Below are positions 24,986-34,878 of a stretch of 64,000 bases of DNA, piece after piece (within the stretch, counting starts at the first letter, position 1; the number at the start of each line of letters is the position of its first letter). The notes beneath the pieces were generated by a model. It was not told the origin of the DNA, searched no databases, and saw only the letters and a list, made by a program, of their open reading frames with translations. Made by a program: the position numbers and the translations under genes. This DNA comes from Chiloscyllium plagiosum (Eukaryota): assembly GCF_004010195.1 (NCBI RefSeq), contig NC_057752.1, forward strand, positions 9,309,323 through 9,373,322, written 5' to 3'.

Positions 24986-25057
24986 TCATCTTATGCTGAG
25001 CTGTGCAAATCCAATGAGTTTGGTTTCATCTGGGCTGTAGCCCTCACAGCCAGAGAC
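24986..25057 (-). CDS. SPAK/OSR1-family kinase, terminal coding exon
   Basis: Acceptor [49 protein letters not shown] matches the OXSR1/STK39 C-terminus KLIGFAQLS(I/V)S. Confidence 0.93.
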   Translation of the reverse strand, partial: [23 protein letters not shown]

Positions 25058-25484
25058 CTGTGAGGAGAATGAGGGGGAAAGAGTAAGCATCCAGCTGGAA
25101 TTCCTTTCAGTTATTTAGTTTTATATCTTGATTGGTCAGCAGATGCCAAATGGAACTATAGGGCAGTGGTTATATTAGCAGACAAATTGGAGAATCCTTG
25201 AAAAAGGGCAAGGGGACCACGATACATGATTAACTAGTGCTCGTTAAAAACAATGCAGGGAGCAAATCAATTTCTGTTGTCTGCTCCTTTAAAAATAACT
25301 GCTGCATACAGCCAACACTAGCTACACTGTTCATTGGCTGCACACATGAGCAGAGGGCTCAAAATTGTAACTTTGTAATCCCAGTTAAATCTAGCCTGTA
25401 CCTCTTAAAAGAAAAGGTGTGGCTTGAGCAGGGACAGGAAATAAATCTGACCTGTGAAATAGAAAACAATCTTTAATTATAGAA

Positions 25485-25645
25485 AGCGGGTTGCACTAGA
25501 GCCGTGGGTGGAGGAGGTGGAAAGGAGGAGAGATGGCCTGTATTCATAGGCAGCGGAGAACAGATAACTGTAGATATCAATTCTAGGAGTCAAGCCCATA
25601 GTGCTGCAAGAAGTTCAATATTCTAACAAGAGTTGCAAAAGTCAG
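25485..25645 (+). pseudogene. Myb/SANT-like DNA-binding ORF remnant of a Harbinger-type transposon
   Basis: ALEPWVEEVERRRDGLYS...QITVDINSRS...CKKFNILTRVAK followed by a GTCAGT donor-like site; resembles the Myb/SANT-like partner of PIF/Harbinger elements. Confidence 0.6.
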
Positions 25646-27315
25646 TGAATGCATCTTCAAAGGTCGTATCCTTACAAATGCAACTCTAATCTTGGACACC
25701 ACTCAATTTTCCTCACCTGTCAACAATTACTAACATAAGAAATAAGAGTAGATCTTTGAAATTTGACACTTCCCAGCCTCTCGTCACTTAAGAAATACTC
25801 CTTTATTTTTGTCTACCAAAGTGGATAACATTTCACAGTATGCAAAAACTTGGCAGTTGAAATATACTCATTTTGCATCTCCAAATCCCCTTAAGACATT
25901 GTCATATCATCCTTAGAACCGACGCTGCCCCCAAGTTGTGTCCTCTGCAAACCACAACGTATTGCATTTCATCCCCATATCCAGGTAATTAGTATAAACT
26001 GTGAATAGCTGGGACACGAGCACTACCCTCCTAATCACGGCCCCACACATTCCCTGAGTTTGCAGAACAAGGTGGTATGCAACAGAAGGCAACACAAGCA
26101 AATTGGAAGGGACAGGCACACCTACATGTTGCACCTGGCAAGGTGATGATGCTCACCATTAACAGACTACTCATCACTGAGATGGTGCCCAATGATAAAG
26201 TATGACAGTATCCTCATGCCTGACCCCCTCACACCATGTGTCCCACATGCCCATAAACTTAATTCTCTTCCAATTTACAAATTGTATTTCTTACATTATC
26301 AACCATACCACATTGCAACTTTATCCTGTGCAATTTCTCTTTCGGATACCAAAGAGTGCAATCTGGTCAGGTGTGGAAGAACAGCAAGATGAATACGCAG
26401 CATTATAATGTACATTCACACTTGCACCTATGAGCTCAGATAACTATGCAGCTTAGGGGATAGCACAGAGGCAGGACTTCCATGTGATGAGACACTGGGC
26501 ACAAGGAGTCTGCAGCTAGAGCACAGATGCCAGCTCACCAATGTGTGATGGGCCAACCTATGGAGGGATGTTATTAAGTATGCAAAACAAAAATGCTTAA
26601 TGCGTTGGGAAGCCTGCAAGAAAGCCAGTGATCAATATCGAAGAGCAGAGAGGAGGCACAGTATTTTGCGCAGAATTTATAAACCCATCATTTCAGAATG
26701 GAAATGATAGCCAGTTTCATCTGGACACTTGTGCAGCCAGCTATGATACAGTATCTAATAGTCTAAATCTCAACTTTCACTACAATACCAGCAGCAGTCA
26801 CACAACTTCTGCGTCCTGCAGCAAAAGCTCAGATTGCTGCCATTGTGGCTGTGGATTAGTATGCAAAAGCCACCTCAAACTGTGGGAGTGGCTCCACACA
26901 GCACAAACCTACTGTGCTTCCTCCGGAAGATAGCATTAATTCTACCAAGATGCTGCAAGCCACAGCCTTTTAGGACCAAAGCCCATCAAAGGCATTCTAT
27001 AAGACCATGTGCAGTCACCTCTTTTGAAATTTAGCGTCTTTCCATCAGTCATGCTTAAAGCCACTGTGTAGGAACAATAAGACAAGTAAAAGCACAGCAG
27101 ACAGACACTAAAGGGAATGCACAAGGTTGATATGTGTATTTTGCCATAGGTTTTGGTTTTGCATTGTGACCAAGTGGTCACTGTGATGTTCAGTGAGAGA
27201 GAAGAAGATAAGGTATGGGACTCTTGACGAATGGGAAATTGGCATTATATTTACTGGTATCACATTTGGATACATCTTTCACCAACCCAGCCAGAAAGCA
27301 GATGTCTTGGTTGCT

Positions 27316-28100
27316 TCACTTCTCTTCCTCCTCATCCGGTATAGCTGGTGGCAAGGGCTGTCCTCTCATGATGGTACGGTTGTGCAGCATGCAGCAAATC
27401 TGCTGCTCTATCAAACTGTATAGAGCTCCTTCACAGTGGTGCAGACTGCATAAATGTTGTTTCAGCATATCAATGGTCTTCTGTATCATTTTGTATAACA
27501 GCATGTGGTCAGTGGATAGTTTTGTCATGCAATTACCAACCTTCAGTTTGCTGCAGTGATTCAAAATGCAGTTGGCACAGAGGACTACTTCAGAATGCAG
27601 GTATTTACCTGCTGCCAAGATATTGAGTGATGGCCTTCCTGATTCTCTGGCCAGGGTCACACATGAAGAATTGGAATCCCTATTGATTCTCATATAGGGC
27701 AGACTTTCCACATACTGTGCCAGCAAATTGATATGTGCATATTTTATGGAACCCTGCACAGGTAAAGCTGAAAGTGAAGCTGCATGCTTACACTGCCTGC
27801 TTCTCTGATCAGGAGAAAAATGAAATGTATTCAGCTCTCATTGCATAGAGGATCCCAGTAGCCTCCCTCATGCAACAGTGGATGGCAAACTGAGATGTTG
27901 TAAATACCTCCAGCTCCAGTCTGGAGGGAACTCATTTAACTGTTCATCATCACGGTCACCTGCACAGCTACTAGTAATGTGGTCCTTGCCCTGCTCTGAA
28001 TTGAAGTTGTTGCTACATTGACTGAAATCTGCTGCCCAGAATGCCTTTACTGAAGCCCACACGCTGTTGGTCCTCTCTCTCTTCCAACCACTTCTCCTGA
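27316..28100 (-). pseudogene. Decayed Harbinger/HARBI1-like DDE transposase
   Basis: IQKTIDMLKQHLCSLHHCEGAL and ICCMLHNRTIMRGQPL resemble the DDE_Tnp_4 C-terminal motif (IExxxGxLKxRFRCL...CCxLHN); frameshifted N-terminal helix-turn-helix-like remnants near 27850-27970. Confidence 0.75.
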
Positions 28101-28649
28101 TCTGTGTCGCCCAGAAGTTTCAAATTGCTGGCTTTGTATGAGTGATACTCATGATCATGAGCTGTGTGTTATCCCGAGAGAAAAGTAAAGCTCAGAGTTA
28201 CTGATTAAACAACTTCATTCAAATCATACAATTTTCAAGTTAAAGTAAAAGTATTCTGAAATGATAAGATCAGACCATTCTCAAATGACTTTAAGCAGAG
28301 GACATTTTACAATCTTGGAATACTAATGAGATCACATAGAAGTTTCTCAAACACTAAAGAATTTGAAGGTTAAAATGGTTAAGAAGTACACAAACCAGTA
28401 AAATGAGCAGAATTCCTGTTATGGCTTAGAATGGACAGTAAGTGATATAACCCCTCATGCCTGCTCTGGCAAAAGATTAGATCATGAAGATTCTTCCAAA
28501 TTAGCTTCACTTTTCTACATACTGCTCATATCCTCCGTTCCCTTAATTGAAAATATCAACTTCAACCTTAAAGAAAAGTAACAGCATCCGCATTAGTAAA
28601 TAAATGCATCAGATGATGTGATGGATCAAGTAGTAGAACAGGAAGACCC

Positions 28650-33529: not shown

Positions 33530-33579
33530 CTAAGGGTCAGGTATTTAAAATCAGTTTTGTGTGGAATTAGTATAATCAT

Positions 33580-33932
33580 AGAATCTCTACAGTGCAGAAA
33601 GAGGCCGTTCAGCCCATTGAGTCTGCACTGACCCTCCAAACAGCATCCCACTCAGACCCACCACCTTACCCTATCTCTATAACCCTACATTTCCCATGGC
33701 TAATCCACCTAGCCTGCACATCCCTGAACACTATGGGCTATTTAGCATGGCCAATTCACTTAACCTGCACATGTTTGGACTGTGGAACAAAACCAGAGCA
33801 CCCGGGGGGAGCCCCTGCAGACACGAGGAGAATGTCTGTGTGGACTTTGCACAGTCGCCCAAGTCTGGAATAGAATCCAGGTCCCTGGCATTGTGAGGCA
33901 GCCGTGCTAACCACTGAGTCACCGTGCTGCCC
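33580..33932 (-). mobile_element. Diverged HE1-like SINE
   Basis: tRNA-like head on minus; TSD ATAATCAT at 33572-33579 and 33933-33940. Confidence 0.85.
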
Positions 33933-34259
33933 ATAATCATTAATACTGATCAGGGCGACACAGTCTGATCTTAAACGTAACAGTCAATAAATGTACTGTC
34001 CTTGTCCATGTTCATTATAGTGCAGAACACCCACTGCAGCTTTTTAAAGGAACAGTTGCCCTCCTTTACTCTCAACTATTTGGTTAGTCATCCATTTCCA
34101 GTTGGATTTCAGGACACATGCCCCATTTCTAACCAAGACAATATAAAGGGTGACTTGGGTTTGGTCTCTGCCATTTTACAACCAACCACTAAAATCTCAA
34201 TGATTTGGAAGTCTAATGTTCTGATAGATCAGAATTTAATAAATATCATCCAAACTTAC

Positions 34260-34312
34260 CCCTTCCTGGAGTGAACTCAAATCTGATATCATTTAGCTCC
34301 CTTCGTAAATTC
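34260..34312 (-). CDS. SPAK/OSR1-family kinase, CCT-domain exon (53 nt)
   Basis: TTTACACAG acceptor, GGG|GTAAGT donor; [17 protein letters not shown], compare OSR1 [17 protein letters not shown]. Confidence 0.95.
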
Positions 34313-34810
34313 CTGTGTAAACATTAAAACAGTTAATACAGAAATTGTGACACAGCACCTGGATTACCATCTTCAGTTCTAAAATTATTTTTTACTAATG
34401 GAAAACTTCCTTCAGAGTTTGAAAACTCCGAGTTATGAAAATCTGCCCCTCCTCCACTCAGTCTCATTTTCCAATTTCCTATCAGTGCTGCCCACCCTTA
34501 GATGAACATTTCCCCTGTACCTCATCTAAGAGGACTGGGTTGTCTGGCCCTTCACAGTCACCAATCTTTCTCCATGACAGTGACTCTGATAGCAGCTTCT
34601 CTCCCAGTAACTAAAATCAGGATGCCTTGTTTAGTTGCTCTATTGGACGTCTTCACAGGGATGCTTTAGCTAAGCATGTTTGCTACTTGTACTGATCTGA
34701 AGTGCACAGTGACCAGATCACCTATTATCAGCACAGCTTACTTCATTCAAATGGTCAGTGTGTACAAAAAAACTTTCCACAAGATTTAGTTGAGGTTGAA
34801 TTCTCCTTAC

Positions 34811-34878
34811 CGTAGTCGCAGGACTAGATGGACAGAACTATCTTCATTACTTAGATGAGATGGACTTTCTGATTGTTC
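34811..34878 (-). CDS. SPAK/OSR1-family kinase exon at start of CCT domain (68 nt)
   Basis: CTTTTGACAG acceptor, ACG|GTAAGG donor; [22 protein letters not shown](R); phases join all five exons into one open frame. Confidence 0.9.

What the first reader, a model, noticed from the sequence alone, without database searches (positions are those of the whole stretch)
24986..34878. Candidate third SPAK/OSR1 kinase ohnologue, tail-to-tail with LIMA1
Seen: five small minus-strand exons, missed by the ORF track, with canonical GT-AG sites and matching phases splice to [108 protein letters not shown]-stop. Established: this is the CCT domain by which STK39/SPAK and OXSR1/OSR1 bind RFxV motifs in WNK kinases and NKCC/NCC/KCC cotransporters. 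Human STK39 lies between XIRP2 and CERS6, OXSR1 lies near XIRP1, and human LIMA1 is followed by CERS5 with no such kinase. Inference: this is the LIMA1-CERS5 (HoxC-chromosome) copy from vertebrate genome duplication, kept in this lineage and lost in humans. It could be an extra branch of WNK-SPAK/OSR1-NKCC signalling, relevant to salt secretion by the shark rectal gland.
Basis: partly seen in the sequence, partly recalled or inferred. Interest (0 to 1): 0.88.

Follow-up and report, generated by a model that had tools for sequence, protein, structure and literature searches.

The report
Shark SPAK-like kinase, a hidden paralogue
The five small exons are real and form the docking end of a full salt-transport-regulating kinase of the SPAK/OSR1 type, which in this shark sits beside LIMA1 where humans have no such gene, while the place where human SPAK lies is empty, so sharks and bony vertebrates seem to have kept different duplicates.

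Summary
Observation confirmed. Five minus-strand exons (34878-24986) with AG/GT borders and matching phases splice to 108 codons. The product equals a partial Chiloscyllium punctatum protein letter for letter and is a CCT domain (Pfam OSR1_C 76 bits; solved SPAK/OSR1 CCT structures E about 1e-38). Kinase exons lie 2.6 to 38 kb beyond the window, so this is a full-length SPAK/OSR1-type kinase, already predicted as 'STK39-like' in at least 11 cartilaginous fishes.

The reading is partly supported. The gene lies CSRNP - LIMA1(+) - kinase(-) - CERS5/6-type(+), on a contig that also holds a sodium channel gene and an adjacent GPD/SMARCD pair (human 12q13 markers, recalled). But it is not a third copy here. 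Four whole-genome searches find only two loci, this one and OXSR1 on contig C4. On contig C7 the stretch XIRP2 - B3GALT1 - [gap] - CERS5/6-type - SPC25 matches the human STK39 neighbourhood and shows no kinase.

The tree gives three separate clades, with their order unresolved (AU p 0.29 and 0.35). The shark clade is no closer to STK39 (74%) than STK39 is to OSR1 (77%).

Best reading (about 0.7): a genome-duplication paralogue kept by cartilaginous fishes in place of STK39. No paper describing this was found.

The parts
34811..34878 (-). Exon A of the part in the window (codons for [22 protein letters not shown] plus 2 bases); start of the CCT domain
   Evidence: AG at 34880-34879 and GT at 34810-34809. 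tblastn gives 100% to P0005 residues 405-427.
34260..34312 (-). Exon B ([18 protein letters not shown]); the most conserved CCT strand
   Evidence: AG at 34314-34313 and GT at 34259-34258. tblastn gives 100%.
33461..33529 (-). Exon C ([23 protein letters not shown]); holds the Leu that matches OSR1 Leu473 of the RFxV pocket
   Evidence: AG at 33531-33530 and GT at 33460-33459. Aligned to 2v3s/7okw. The role of Leu473 comes from PMC4512625, passages read.
33306..33370 (-). Exon D ([22 protein letters not shown])
   Evidence: AG at 33372-33371 and GT at 33305-33304. tblastn.
24986..25057 (-). Exon E, coding part ([23 protein letters not shown], stop TGA at 24988-24986)
   Evidence: AG at 25059-25058. 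PDB match to the SPAK/OSR1 C-termini. Contigs of runs X1 and X2 stop at 25055.
23000..24985 (-). Probable 3' untranslated region, at least 2 kb; its lower end was not determined
   Evidence: In runs X1 and X2 the word depth is 4.6-12 over 23000-25004, against 0-2.5 in the unique intron bins 25406-28613. Strand and RNA nature are not shown by contigs.
25058..33305 (-). 8.2-kb intron between exons D and E, holding reverse-transcriptase-like ORFs of a retroelement on the + strand (about 29.0-31.4 kb)
   Evidence: ORFs. Repeat-level depth (thousands).
7269..8298 (+). Last coding exon of LIMA1 (EPLIN): second half of the LIM domain plus the C-terminal tail; tail-to-tail neighbour
   Evidence: 358-aa frame, acceptor AG at 7267-7268. 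Best solved relative is the EPLIN LIM domain 2d8y at 56.8 bits. There are no Xin repeats on C43. XIRP2 has its own homologous exon on C7.

Best explanation
The five exons are the 3' end of an intact, expressed SPAK/OSR1-type (GCK-VI, STE20) kinase gene of about 80 kb or more. The protein has an N-terminal kinase domain, the WNK-target T-loop threonine and S-motif serine, and the C-terminal CCT domain. Inferred from the family: the CCT domain docks on RFxV/I motifs of WNK kinases and of NKCC/NCC/KCC cotransporters. The kinase would therefore be switched on by WNK and then phosphorylate the cotransporters.

In evolutionary terms it is neither the orthologue of bony-vertebrate STK39 nor of OXSR1. 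It is the copy that the vertebrate genome duplications left in the CSRNP2-LIMA1-[ ]-CERS5 block. Cartilaginous fishes kept this copy and OXSR1. They appear to have lost the STK39 copy from the XIRP2-B3GALT1-[ ]-CERS6 block. Bony vertebrates did the reverse.

Shown here: gene structure, domains, motifs, copy number in this assembly, neighbours, and clade separation. Inferred: the timing at the genome duplications, true loss of STK39, and all biochemistry.
For: GENE
- The spliced peptide equals P0001.
- Upstream kinase exons lie on the same strand of C43 at 9375959-9411626, with near-100% identity to the Hemiscyllium orthologue and no stops inside the exon blocks.
- Pfam on orthologue P0008: Pkinase 216 bits and OSR1_C 74.8 bits.
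- In 8 of 8 clade members HRDVKAGN, DFGVS, the T-loop R.KVRKTFVGTPCWMAPE and GSSGHLYKT are kept.
- The Leu equivalent to OSR1 Leu473 is kept.
- Mean identity within the clade is 89.3% across sharks, rays and a chimaera, which points to purifying selection.

COPY NUMBER
- Family PF12202, P0005, gar STK39 and a 47-aa activation-segment exon at full sensitivity all find only C43 and C4:32732130-32862759 at above 75% identity. The next best match is 53%.
- The C4 gene is OXSR1: every named kinase among the 120 best hits of one of its exons is OSR1, sharks included.

NEIGHBOURS ON C43
- Sodium channel 2.23 Mb, GPD 2.836 Mb, SMARCD-type SWIB 2.886 Mb, CSRNP 9.055-9.064 Mb, LIMA1, the kinase, and a CERS5/6-type exon at 9.553-9.557 Mb.

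NEIGHBOURS ON C7
- Sodium channel 63.72 Mb and CSRNP 64.11 Mb.
- Xin repeats 64.603-64.606 Mb plus an EPLIN-like exon at 64.6235 Mb, which together make XIRP2.
- B3GALT1 at 64.817 Mb, an exact match to a protein so named.
- CERS5/6-type at 65.132-65.139 Mb, and the single-copy SPC25 at 65.243-65.247 Mb.
- No kinase hit in between in any search.
- Order and orientation in both blocks are LIM/Xin(+), kinase(-), CERS(+).
- Hox9 genes lie on C5, C7 and C33 but not on C43, so C43 is the fourth block by exclusion.

OTHER SPECIES
- In 6 of 6 species with both values, the clade's gene and B3GALT1 sit on contigs of different length. Example: Scyliorhinus 20.1 Mb against 289.5 Mb.

TREE (43 proteins)
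- OSR1 100/99, bony STK39 99/95, shark clade 100/100, each monophyletic.
- Shark clade to STK39 74.1% and to OSR1 71.4-71.9%. STK39 to OSR1 76.5-76.9%. OSR1 orthologues across the same species split 84.3%.
Against: - The tree does not resolve the order of the three clades. The best tree puts the shark clade outside STK39+OSR1 with weak support (81/46) and a long-branch warning. Holding it with STK39 costs only 1.03 log-likelihood units (AU p 0.285), so a fast-evolving STK39 orthologue is not rejected by sequence.
- No species is shown to hold both this gene and a true STK39, which would be the direct proof.
- Absence of STK39 rests on one assembly of 101,977 contigs. Two of the four searches ran with a stricter first look.
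- The two CERS exons are equally like human CERS6 (59.9 and 63.4 bits). Calling them CERS5 and CERS6 rests on neighbours only.
- Of 7 marker families of human 12q13 tested on C43, one (DIP2) has no member there. GPD/SMARCD lie 6.7 Mb from the CERS gene, not beside it.
- Human gene order is recalled, not taken from a tool.
- No lamprey, hagfish or amphioxus sequence was in the tree.
Confidence: 0.68

Rival explanations
1. It is simply the STK39 (SPAK) orthologue of cartilaginous fishes. It evolved fast on the stem of the group and was moved from the XIRP2-B3GALT1-CERS6 block to its present place.
For: The genome has only two family members, as mammals do. The best non-chondrichthyan hits of P0008 are all STK39 at 72-75%. 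Identity to STK39 (74.1%) is slightly higher than to OSR1 (71.4-71.9%). It shares GSSGH with STK39 where OSR1 has GSSGR. The AU test does not reject a clade with STK39 (p 0.285). One source names the Callorhinchus gene plainly as this kinase, without '-like'.
Against: A move would have had to land exactly between the paralogues of its old neighbours (LIMA1 for XIRP2, a CERS5/6-type gene for CERS6), in the same order and orientation. It is less like STK39 than STK39 is like OSR1, while OSR1 orthologues across the same split are 84.3% alike. The best tree does not join it to STK39. In 6 of 6 other species it lies on a different contig from B3GALT1, so any move would be ancient.
Confidence: 0.17
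2. It is a genuine third copy. A true STK39 also exists in this shark but is missing from, or hidden in a gap of, this assembly.
For: The assembly is fragmented (101,977 contigs). A third CSRNP gene and one CERS gene sit on small unplaced contigs, so genes of these blocks can fall outside the chromosomes. Only the best 120 of 7066 hits were listed, so a shark STK39 could lie below the cut.
Against: Four searches, one at full sensitivity, found no third locus on any contig, placed or unplaced. An intact STK39 should outscore the two loci that were found when gar STK39 is the query. None of the 10 chondrichthyan proteins among the 120 best hits falls outside this clade.
Confidence: 0.12

Closest known systems
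STK39 / SPAK of bony vertebrates
   Same: Same architecture: kinase domain, T-loop Thr, S-motif Ser (GSSGH), CCT domain. Solved SPAK CCT 7o86 matches at E 2.3e-38. It is the nearest family by identity, 74.1%.
   Different: It forms a separate clade (100/100 against 99/95). Its neighbourhood is different (LIMA1/CERS5-type instead of XIRP2/B3GALT1/CERS6-type). Its N-terminus is short, 24 residues before the glycine loop with 17% Pro+Ala, against 65-70 residues with 49-56% in the mammals and lizard sampled; gar and bowfin have 35 residues with 20-23%. The linker before the CCT domain is shorter.
OXSR1 / OSR1
   Same: Same architecture. Solved OSR1 CCT domains 7okw and 2v3s match at E about 3e-37. 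The Leu473 equivalent is kept. The short N-terminus is similar.
   Different: The shark has its own OXSR1 on C4, next to a Xin-repeat gene. The clades are separate. Identity is 71.4-71.9%.
[quoted passage not shown]
   Same: This is the same gene. Identity over the C-terminal exon is 87-100%, and P0005 (Hemiscyllium) is 100% identical over residues 405-512.
   Different: Those records are automatic names without any statement on paralogy. Some models are flawed: P0005 starts with about 100 residues that match a dispersed repeat.
Fray (Drosophila) and GCK-3 (Caenorhabditis), the single invertebrate members
   Same: Kinase plus CCT architecture. They were used as outgroups, at about 57-58% identity over kept columns.
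   Different: They predate the duplications and are not members of any of the three vertebrate clades.

Membership tests
SPAK/OSR1 (GCK-VI STE20) kinases | C-terminal CCT domain (Pfam OSR1_C) | tested here: met
   P0001, which equals the window's spliced product, scores 76.3 bits against a cut-off of 22.4. Solved SPAK/OSR1 CCT structures match at E 2e-38 to 3e-37.
SPAK/OSR1 (GCK-VI STE20) kinases | N-terminal protein kinase domain with catalytic motifs, encoded by the same gene | tested here: met
   Exons on C43 minus strand at 9375959-9411626 are intact where read. Orthologue P0008 scores Pkinase 216 bits. HRDVKAGN and DFGVS are present in 8 of 8 clade members. Exon 1 of this genome's copy was not located.
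SPAK/OSR1 (GCK-VI STE20) kinases | WNK target sites: T-loop Thr in RKTFVGTPCW and S-motif Ser in GSSG | tested here: met
   Both motifs are present in 8 of 8 clade members and in this genome's exons at 9400723-9400863 and 9375965-9376087. That they are WNK sites is taken from the literature (Ser373 named in PMC4512625, passages; the T-loop site is recalled).
SPAK/OSR1 (GCK-VI STE20) kinases | RFxV-pocket leucine (OSR1 Leu473) | tested here: met
   The Leu of SAGLVD aligns with position 42 of chain 2v3s, which is residue 473 if the chain ends at residue 527. Its role is stated in PMC4512625.
SPAK/OSR1 (GCK-VI STE20) kinases | Binds RFxV/I peptides, is activated by WNK, phosphorylates NKCC1 | not testable with these tools
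   No binding or activity assay was possible and no complex prediction was run.
STK39 orthologue | Groups with the STK39 of other vertebrates in a tree | tested here: inconclusive
   The best tree puts it outside STK39+OSR1 (81/46, with a long-branch warning). A clade with STK39 is not rejected (AU p 0.285), nor is one with OSR1 (p 0.345).
STK39 orthologue | Lies between B3GALT1/XIRP2 and CERS6 (human order, recalled) | tested here: not met
   That block is on C7 and shows no kinase. The gene is on C43.
OXSR1 orthologue | Groups with OSR1 and is the only such gene in the genome | tested here: not met
   A separate OXSR1 lies on C4. The OSR1 clade (100/99) includes seven chondrichthyan OSR1 proteins and excludes this clade.
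Genome-duplication paralogue of the LIMA1-CERS5 block | Flanked by the paralogues of STK39's neighbours, in the same order and orientation | tested here: met
   The order is CSRNP(-) ... LIMA1(+) kinase(-) CERS5/6-type(+) on C43 and CSRNP(-) ... XIRP2(+) B3GALT1(+) CERS5/6-type(+) SPC25(-) on C7.
Genome-duplication paralogue of the LIMA1-CERS5 block | The contig carries further markers of human 12q13 (list recalled) | tested here: met
   6 of 7 families tested have a member on C43: sodium channel, GPD, SMARCD-type SWIB (50 kb from GPD), CSRNP, LIMA1 and CERS5/6-type. DIP2 has none.
Genome-duplication paralogue of the LIMA1-CERS5 block | Co-exists with STK39 in at least one genome, or relic exons lie in the reciprocal slots | not tested
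   No other vertebrate genome is held here.

The most novel reading that the evidence does not exclude
The jawed-vertebrate ancestor had at least three SPAK/OSR1 kinases, one in each of three duplicated CSRNP-LIM/Xin-kinase-CERS blocks. Cartilaginous and bony vertebrates then kept different second members. On this reading the 'SPAK' partner of the classic shark rectal-gland NKCC1 system is a paralogue of mammalian SPAK, not its counterpart. Its long stem branch (0.71 against 0.20 and 0.30) may reflect a shifted docking or substrate preference.
Probability: 0.4. Interest if true: 0.65.

Novelty: new member of a known kind. Interest (0 to 1): 0.55.

Why it matters
SPAK and OSR1 are the switch between WNK chloride/osmotic sensing and the NKCC/NCC/KCC cotransporters. 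The shark rectal gland is a founding model for NKCC1 regulation.

If the shark's second kinase is a paralogue and not the counterpart of mammalian SPAK, several things follow:
- Shark and mammal results on 'SPAK' compare different genes.
- Automatic names ('STK39', 'STK39-like', 'OSR1-like') mislead orthology-based transfers.
- The family becomes a clean example of different lineages keeping different duplicates.
- It gives a natural experiment on which features of the kinase (N-terminal Pro/Ala box, linker, CCT pocket) are needed for salt secretion.

It is not a new mechanism. Each lineage keeping a different duplicate is a common pattern, so the interest is moderate.

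Tried and rejected
- Kinase exons inside the window. A motif scan and tblastn of three orthologues found nothing convincing between 35000 and 64000. The next exon lies about 2.6 kb beyond the window end.
- Neighbour as XIRP2 instead of LIMA1. Rejected: there are no Xin repeats on C43, XIRP2 has its own EPLIN-like exon on C7 at 41% identity, and the best solved relative is EPLIN. 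The Atlas look-up could not tell them apart: the top rows, 'XIRP2 protein (Fragment)' and unnamed LIM clusters, all score 0.83, below the 0.9 line.
- Telling CERS5 from CERS6 by sequence. One exon of each gene against solved human CERS6 gave 59.9 and 63.4 bits, which is not decisive. Three further CERS exons (C101194, C31, C33) are of other types.
- Atlas naming of the C7 galactosyltransferase gave only the family. The exact look-up settled it as B3GALT1.
- Search with a profile of 13 STK39 proteins was not accepted for this genome. A single-exon query was used instead.
- A weak OSR1_C match on C15 (18.7 bits, E 6.3, one stop) is at chance level and was not pursued.
- RNA. No listed holder is on record as RNA. 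The single-cell RNA run X12 laid no read, so it gives no test. The exon-exon joints were not among the 15 of 285 joints printed. The support from X1 and X2 is therefore indirect: contigs end at 25055, and bin depths fit exon-only cover.
- Earlier notes of this scan: none near the window, and the 8 notes shown of the 33 on this genome concern other loci.
- Papers. No description of a third SPAK/OSR1 paralogue or of this shark gene was found in five searches. The one paper holding STK39, OXSR1 and 'ohnolog' (bioRxiv 10.1101/2024.02.13.579840, passages read) concerns human cell screens only.
- Structure and complex prediction were not run. The sequence matches to solved CCT domains made them unnecessary.

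Full report
WHAT IS THERE

Reading the DNA base by base gives these exons:
- A: 34878-34811
- B: 34312-34260
- C: 33529-33461
- D: 33370-33306
- E: 25057-24986, with TGA at 24988-24986

Each exon is preceded by AG, and each of A-D is followed by GTAAG or GTAAGT-like donors. The split codons fit, and the total is 324 bases = 108 codons. It is letter for letter the partial protein P0001 ('hypothetical protein chiPu_0020466', Chiloscyllium punctatum). tblastn of three full-length orthologues puts the same blocks at the same borders.

WHAT THE PEPTIDE IS

- P0001 scores 76.3 bits against Pfam OSR1_C, whose cut-off is 22.4.
- It matches the solved CCT domains of SPAK (7o86, E 2.3e-38) and OSR1 (7okw, 2v3s; E about 3e-37) almost equally.
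- The leucine that aligns with OSR1 Leu473 is kept. According to PMC4512625 (passages read) this residue lies at the base of the hydrophobic pocket that holds the Phe of the RFxI/V motif, and its loss cuts binding over 100-fold.

THE REST OF THE GENE

Only residues 405-512 of the orthologues map inside the window. The window is G000:C43:9309323-9373322. A search of the whole 3.56-Gb assembly with the Hemiscyllium orthologue finds the kinase exons further up the same strand of C43, from 9375959 to 9411626. In the loci that came back they are intact and 97-100% identical to that orthologue. They include the catalytic loop, the DFG/activation-segment exon and the S-motif exon.

So this is a full-length gene of at least 77 kb, with a 31.8-kb intron above exon A. 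Orthologue P0008 has Pkinase (216 bits) plus OSR1_C (74.8 bits). In 8 of 8 members of the clade the catalytic loop, DFG, the T-loop motif and the serine motif GSSGHLYKT are kept.

TRANSCRIPTION

No listed run is on record as RNA, and the one true RNA run laid nothing, so those give no test. In two runs of related organisms (X1, X2; 'RNA?' is a guess) the picture is as follows:
- Contigs cover 23000-25055 at depth 4.6-12, while the unique intron bins 25406-28613 have 0-2.5.
- The contigs stop at 25055, two bases from the predicted start of exon E.
- One contig of 1121 letters carries 456 more letters beyond that point.
- The bins that hold exons A, B and D have just the mean depth expected if only the exon were covered by that contig: X2 shows 1.18, 0.82 and 1.03 against expected 1.18, 0.84 and 1.05.

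This fits a spliced mRNA with a 3' untranslated region of 2 kb or more. However, the joints themselves were not among the 15 of 285 printed.

HOW MANY SUCH GENES

Four searches of the assembly find only two loci at more than 75% identity:
- family OSR1_C;
- the Hemiscyllium protein;
- gar STK39;
- the 47-aa activation-segment exon at full sensitivity.

The two loci are this one and C4:32732130-32862759 (+). In one search the next best match is 53% identical at 29 bits. I mapped the C4 gene exon by exon. One of its exons hits OSR1 in every named kinase among the 120 best proteins, including shark 'OSR1b'. So C4 is OXSR1.

Thus the shark assembly holds two family members, not three. Caveats: searches ran with a stricter first look, the assembly has 101,977 contigs, and I could not read the C7 interval directly.

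THE NEIGHBOURS

The + strand frame 7222-8298 (real exon from 7269) is the last coding exon of a LIM protein. The evidence that it is LIMA1:
- Its best solved relative is the EPLIN (LIMA1) LIM domain (2d8y, 56.8 bits).
- Xin repeats occur at only two places in the genome, C4:32.952-32.955 Mb and C7:64.603-64.606 Mb, and never on C43.
- The C7 Xin gene has its own homologue of this exon 18 kb downstream, at 41% identity.

So the window's gene is LIMA1 and C7 holds XIRP2.

Beyond the kinase on C43 lies a CERS5/6-type exon at 9.553-9.557 Mb on the + strand. The 16.4-Mb contig also carries:
- CSRNP at 9.055-9.064 Mb;
- a sodium channel gene at 2.23 Mb;
- a GPD gene at 2.836 Mb, with a SMARCD-type SWIB gene 50 kb away.

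DIP2 has no member there. Six of the seven families I tested as markers of human 12q13 are thus present. The human list and order are recalled from memory, not taken from a tool.

THE STK39 PLACE

On C7 the order is:
- sodium channel (63.72 Mb);
- CSRNP (64.11-64.13);
- XIRP2 (64.60-64.62, +);
- a 326-codon single-exon galactosyltransferase at 64.817 (+);
- a CERS5/6-type gene (65.132-65.139, +);
- the single-copy SPC25 (65.243-65.247, -).

The galactosyltransferase is letter for letter the protein named beta-1,3-galactosyltransferase 1 in a Chiloscyllium species and clusters with 14 other chondrichthyan B3GALT1 proteins.

This is the order I recall for human 2q24.3 (XIRP2, B3GALT1, STK39, CERS6, NOSTRIN, SPC25), with the kinase missing. 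None of the four searches gives any hit in the 315 kb between B3GALT1 and the CERS exon. A Hox9 gene lies on C7, C5 and C33 but not on C43. C33 also has a sodium channel, a SWIB gene, a LIMD2-like LIM exon and a divergent CERS-like exon. The simplest picture is four duplicated blocks, of which C7 is the HoxD-type, C33 the HoxB-type and C43 the one without a detectable Hox9.

OTHER SPECIES

Using the contig lengths the protein tables give, the clade's gene and B3GALT1 lie on contigs of different length in 6 of 6 species with both values: Scyliorhinus, Hemiscyllium, Pristis, Hemitrygon, Narcine and Stegostoma. In the sharks and the sawfish the kinase is on a small contig of 16-24 Mb. The separation from the STK39 neighbourhood is therefore old and is not an error of this assembly.

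TREE

I built a tree from 43 proteins:
- 8 of the shark clade;
- 13 bony-vertebrate STK39;
- 16 OSR1, of which 7 chondrichthyan;
- 6 arthropod or nematode outgroups, named through.

The method was IQ-TREE, LG+C20+F+G4 on 499 columns. I left out the isoforms P0002, P0004 and P0006 and the fragments. No cyclostome or invertebrate chordate was available.

Each of the three vertebrate groups is one clade: OSR1 100/99, STK39 99/95, shark clade 100/100. The shark clade has a long stem (0.71, against 0.20 and 0.30) and is placed outside STK39+OSR1 with weak support (81/46) and a long-branch warning. Holding it with STK39 costs 1.03 log-likelihood units (AU p 0.285). Holding it with OSR1 costs 0.92 (p 0.345). 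The order is unresolved.

Mean identities:
- shark clade to STK39: 74.1%
- shark clade to OSR1: 71.4-71.9%
- STK39 to OSR1: 76.5-76.9%
- OSR1 of cartilaginous against bony vertebrates: 84.3%
- within the shark clade: 89.3%

The clade is thus as far from STK39 as the two known paralogues are from each other. It is also well conserved within itself.

INTERPRETATION

The best explanation (0.68) is that this gene is the copy that the vertebrate genome duplications left in the CSRNP2-LIMA1-CERS5 block. Cartilaginous fishes kept it together with OXSR1 and lost STK39. Bony vertebrates kept STK39 and lost this one.

The strongest argument is positional. The gene sits between the paralogues of STK39's own neighbours, in the same order and orientation, while the STK39 slot is empty.

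The main rival (0.17) is a fast-evolving STK39 orthologue that moved. Sequence alone does not reject it, but it needs a move into exactly the paralogous slot. It remains possible and would leave the paralogy intact.

HOW IT WORKS

This is inferred from the family and not tested here. WNK kinases bind the CCT domain through RFxV motifs and phosphorylate the T-loop threonine and S-motif serine. The active kinase then docks on RFxV motifs of NKCC1 and its relatives and phosphorylates their N-termini. All the sequence features needed for this are kept. The short N-terminus (24 residues, 17% Pro+Ala) shows no Pro/Ala box, though gar and bowfin STK39 also have only 35 residues there. Whether this kinase or OSR1 serves the rectal gland could not be examined.

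NOVELTY

The gene is already in public predictions under automatic names: 'STK39-like' in most species, plain STK39 in Callorhinchus, and 'OSR1-like' in Rhinoraja. I found no paper that describes it, or a third vertebrate SPAK/OSR1 lineage, in five full-text searches. Subscription journals and supplements of preprints were not searchable. I file it as a new member of a known kind, of moderate interest.

Noticed in passing
G000:C83958:189-674 (unplaced contig): An 86% identical copy of the C-terminal half (residues 197-358) of the LIMA1 last exon sits on a tiny unplaced contig. It may be a diverged haplotype, a partial duplicate or an assembly leftover.
   Followed up: no
P0005 (Hemiscyllium gene model), residues 1 to about 100; for example G000:C11:77138753-77139034 and more than 40 other loci: The N-terminus of this public gene model matches dozens of dispersed loci at 60-81% identity. 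It is most likely a repeat-derived false first exon in the prediction. The true start in other species is a short MAEEL... exon.
   Followed up: partly
window 40640-46450 and 57890-58310: 1999 N in several runs lie inside a repeat-rich stretch full of reverse-transcriptase-like and other retroelement frames, on both strands of the 31.8-kb intron above exon A. I did not try to see what the N stand for.
   Followed up: no
window 28600-34230: Retroelement pieces inside the introns reach word depths of thousands to nearly 100,000 in three runs, so these families are extremely abundant or highly transcribed. One of them lies between exons B and C, at 33426-34227.
   Followed up: no
G000:C33:15171149-15174192: A divergent CERS-like exon lies near a CCT-like (WNK-type) exon at C33:14.78 Mb, on the contig that also has a Hox9, a sodium channel, a SWIB gene and a LIMD2-like exon. 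It may be a further CERS paralogue of the HoxB-type block.
   Followed up: no
G000:C43 (whole contig, 16.4 Mb): No Hox9 activation-domain match is found on this contig, while C5, C7 and C33 each have one. This fits the reduced HoxC cluster reported for elasmobranchs (recalled), but it was not examined further.
   Followed up: no
G000:C7:64623493-64623987: The XIRP2 locus carries a 562-codon open frame whose start is homologous (41%) to the LIM/tail exon of LIMA1. It shows the shared origin of the LIMA1 and XIRP2 C-termini in this genome.
   Followed up: partly
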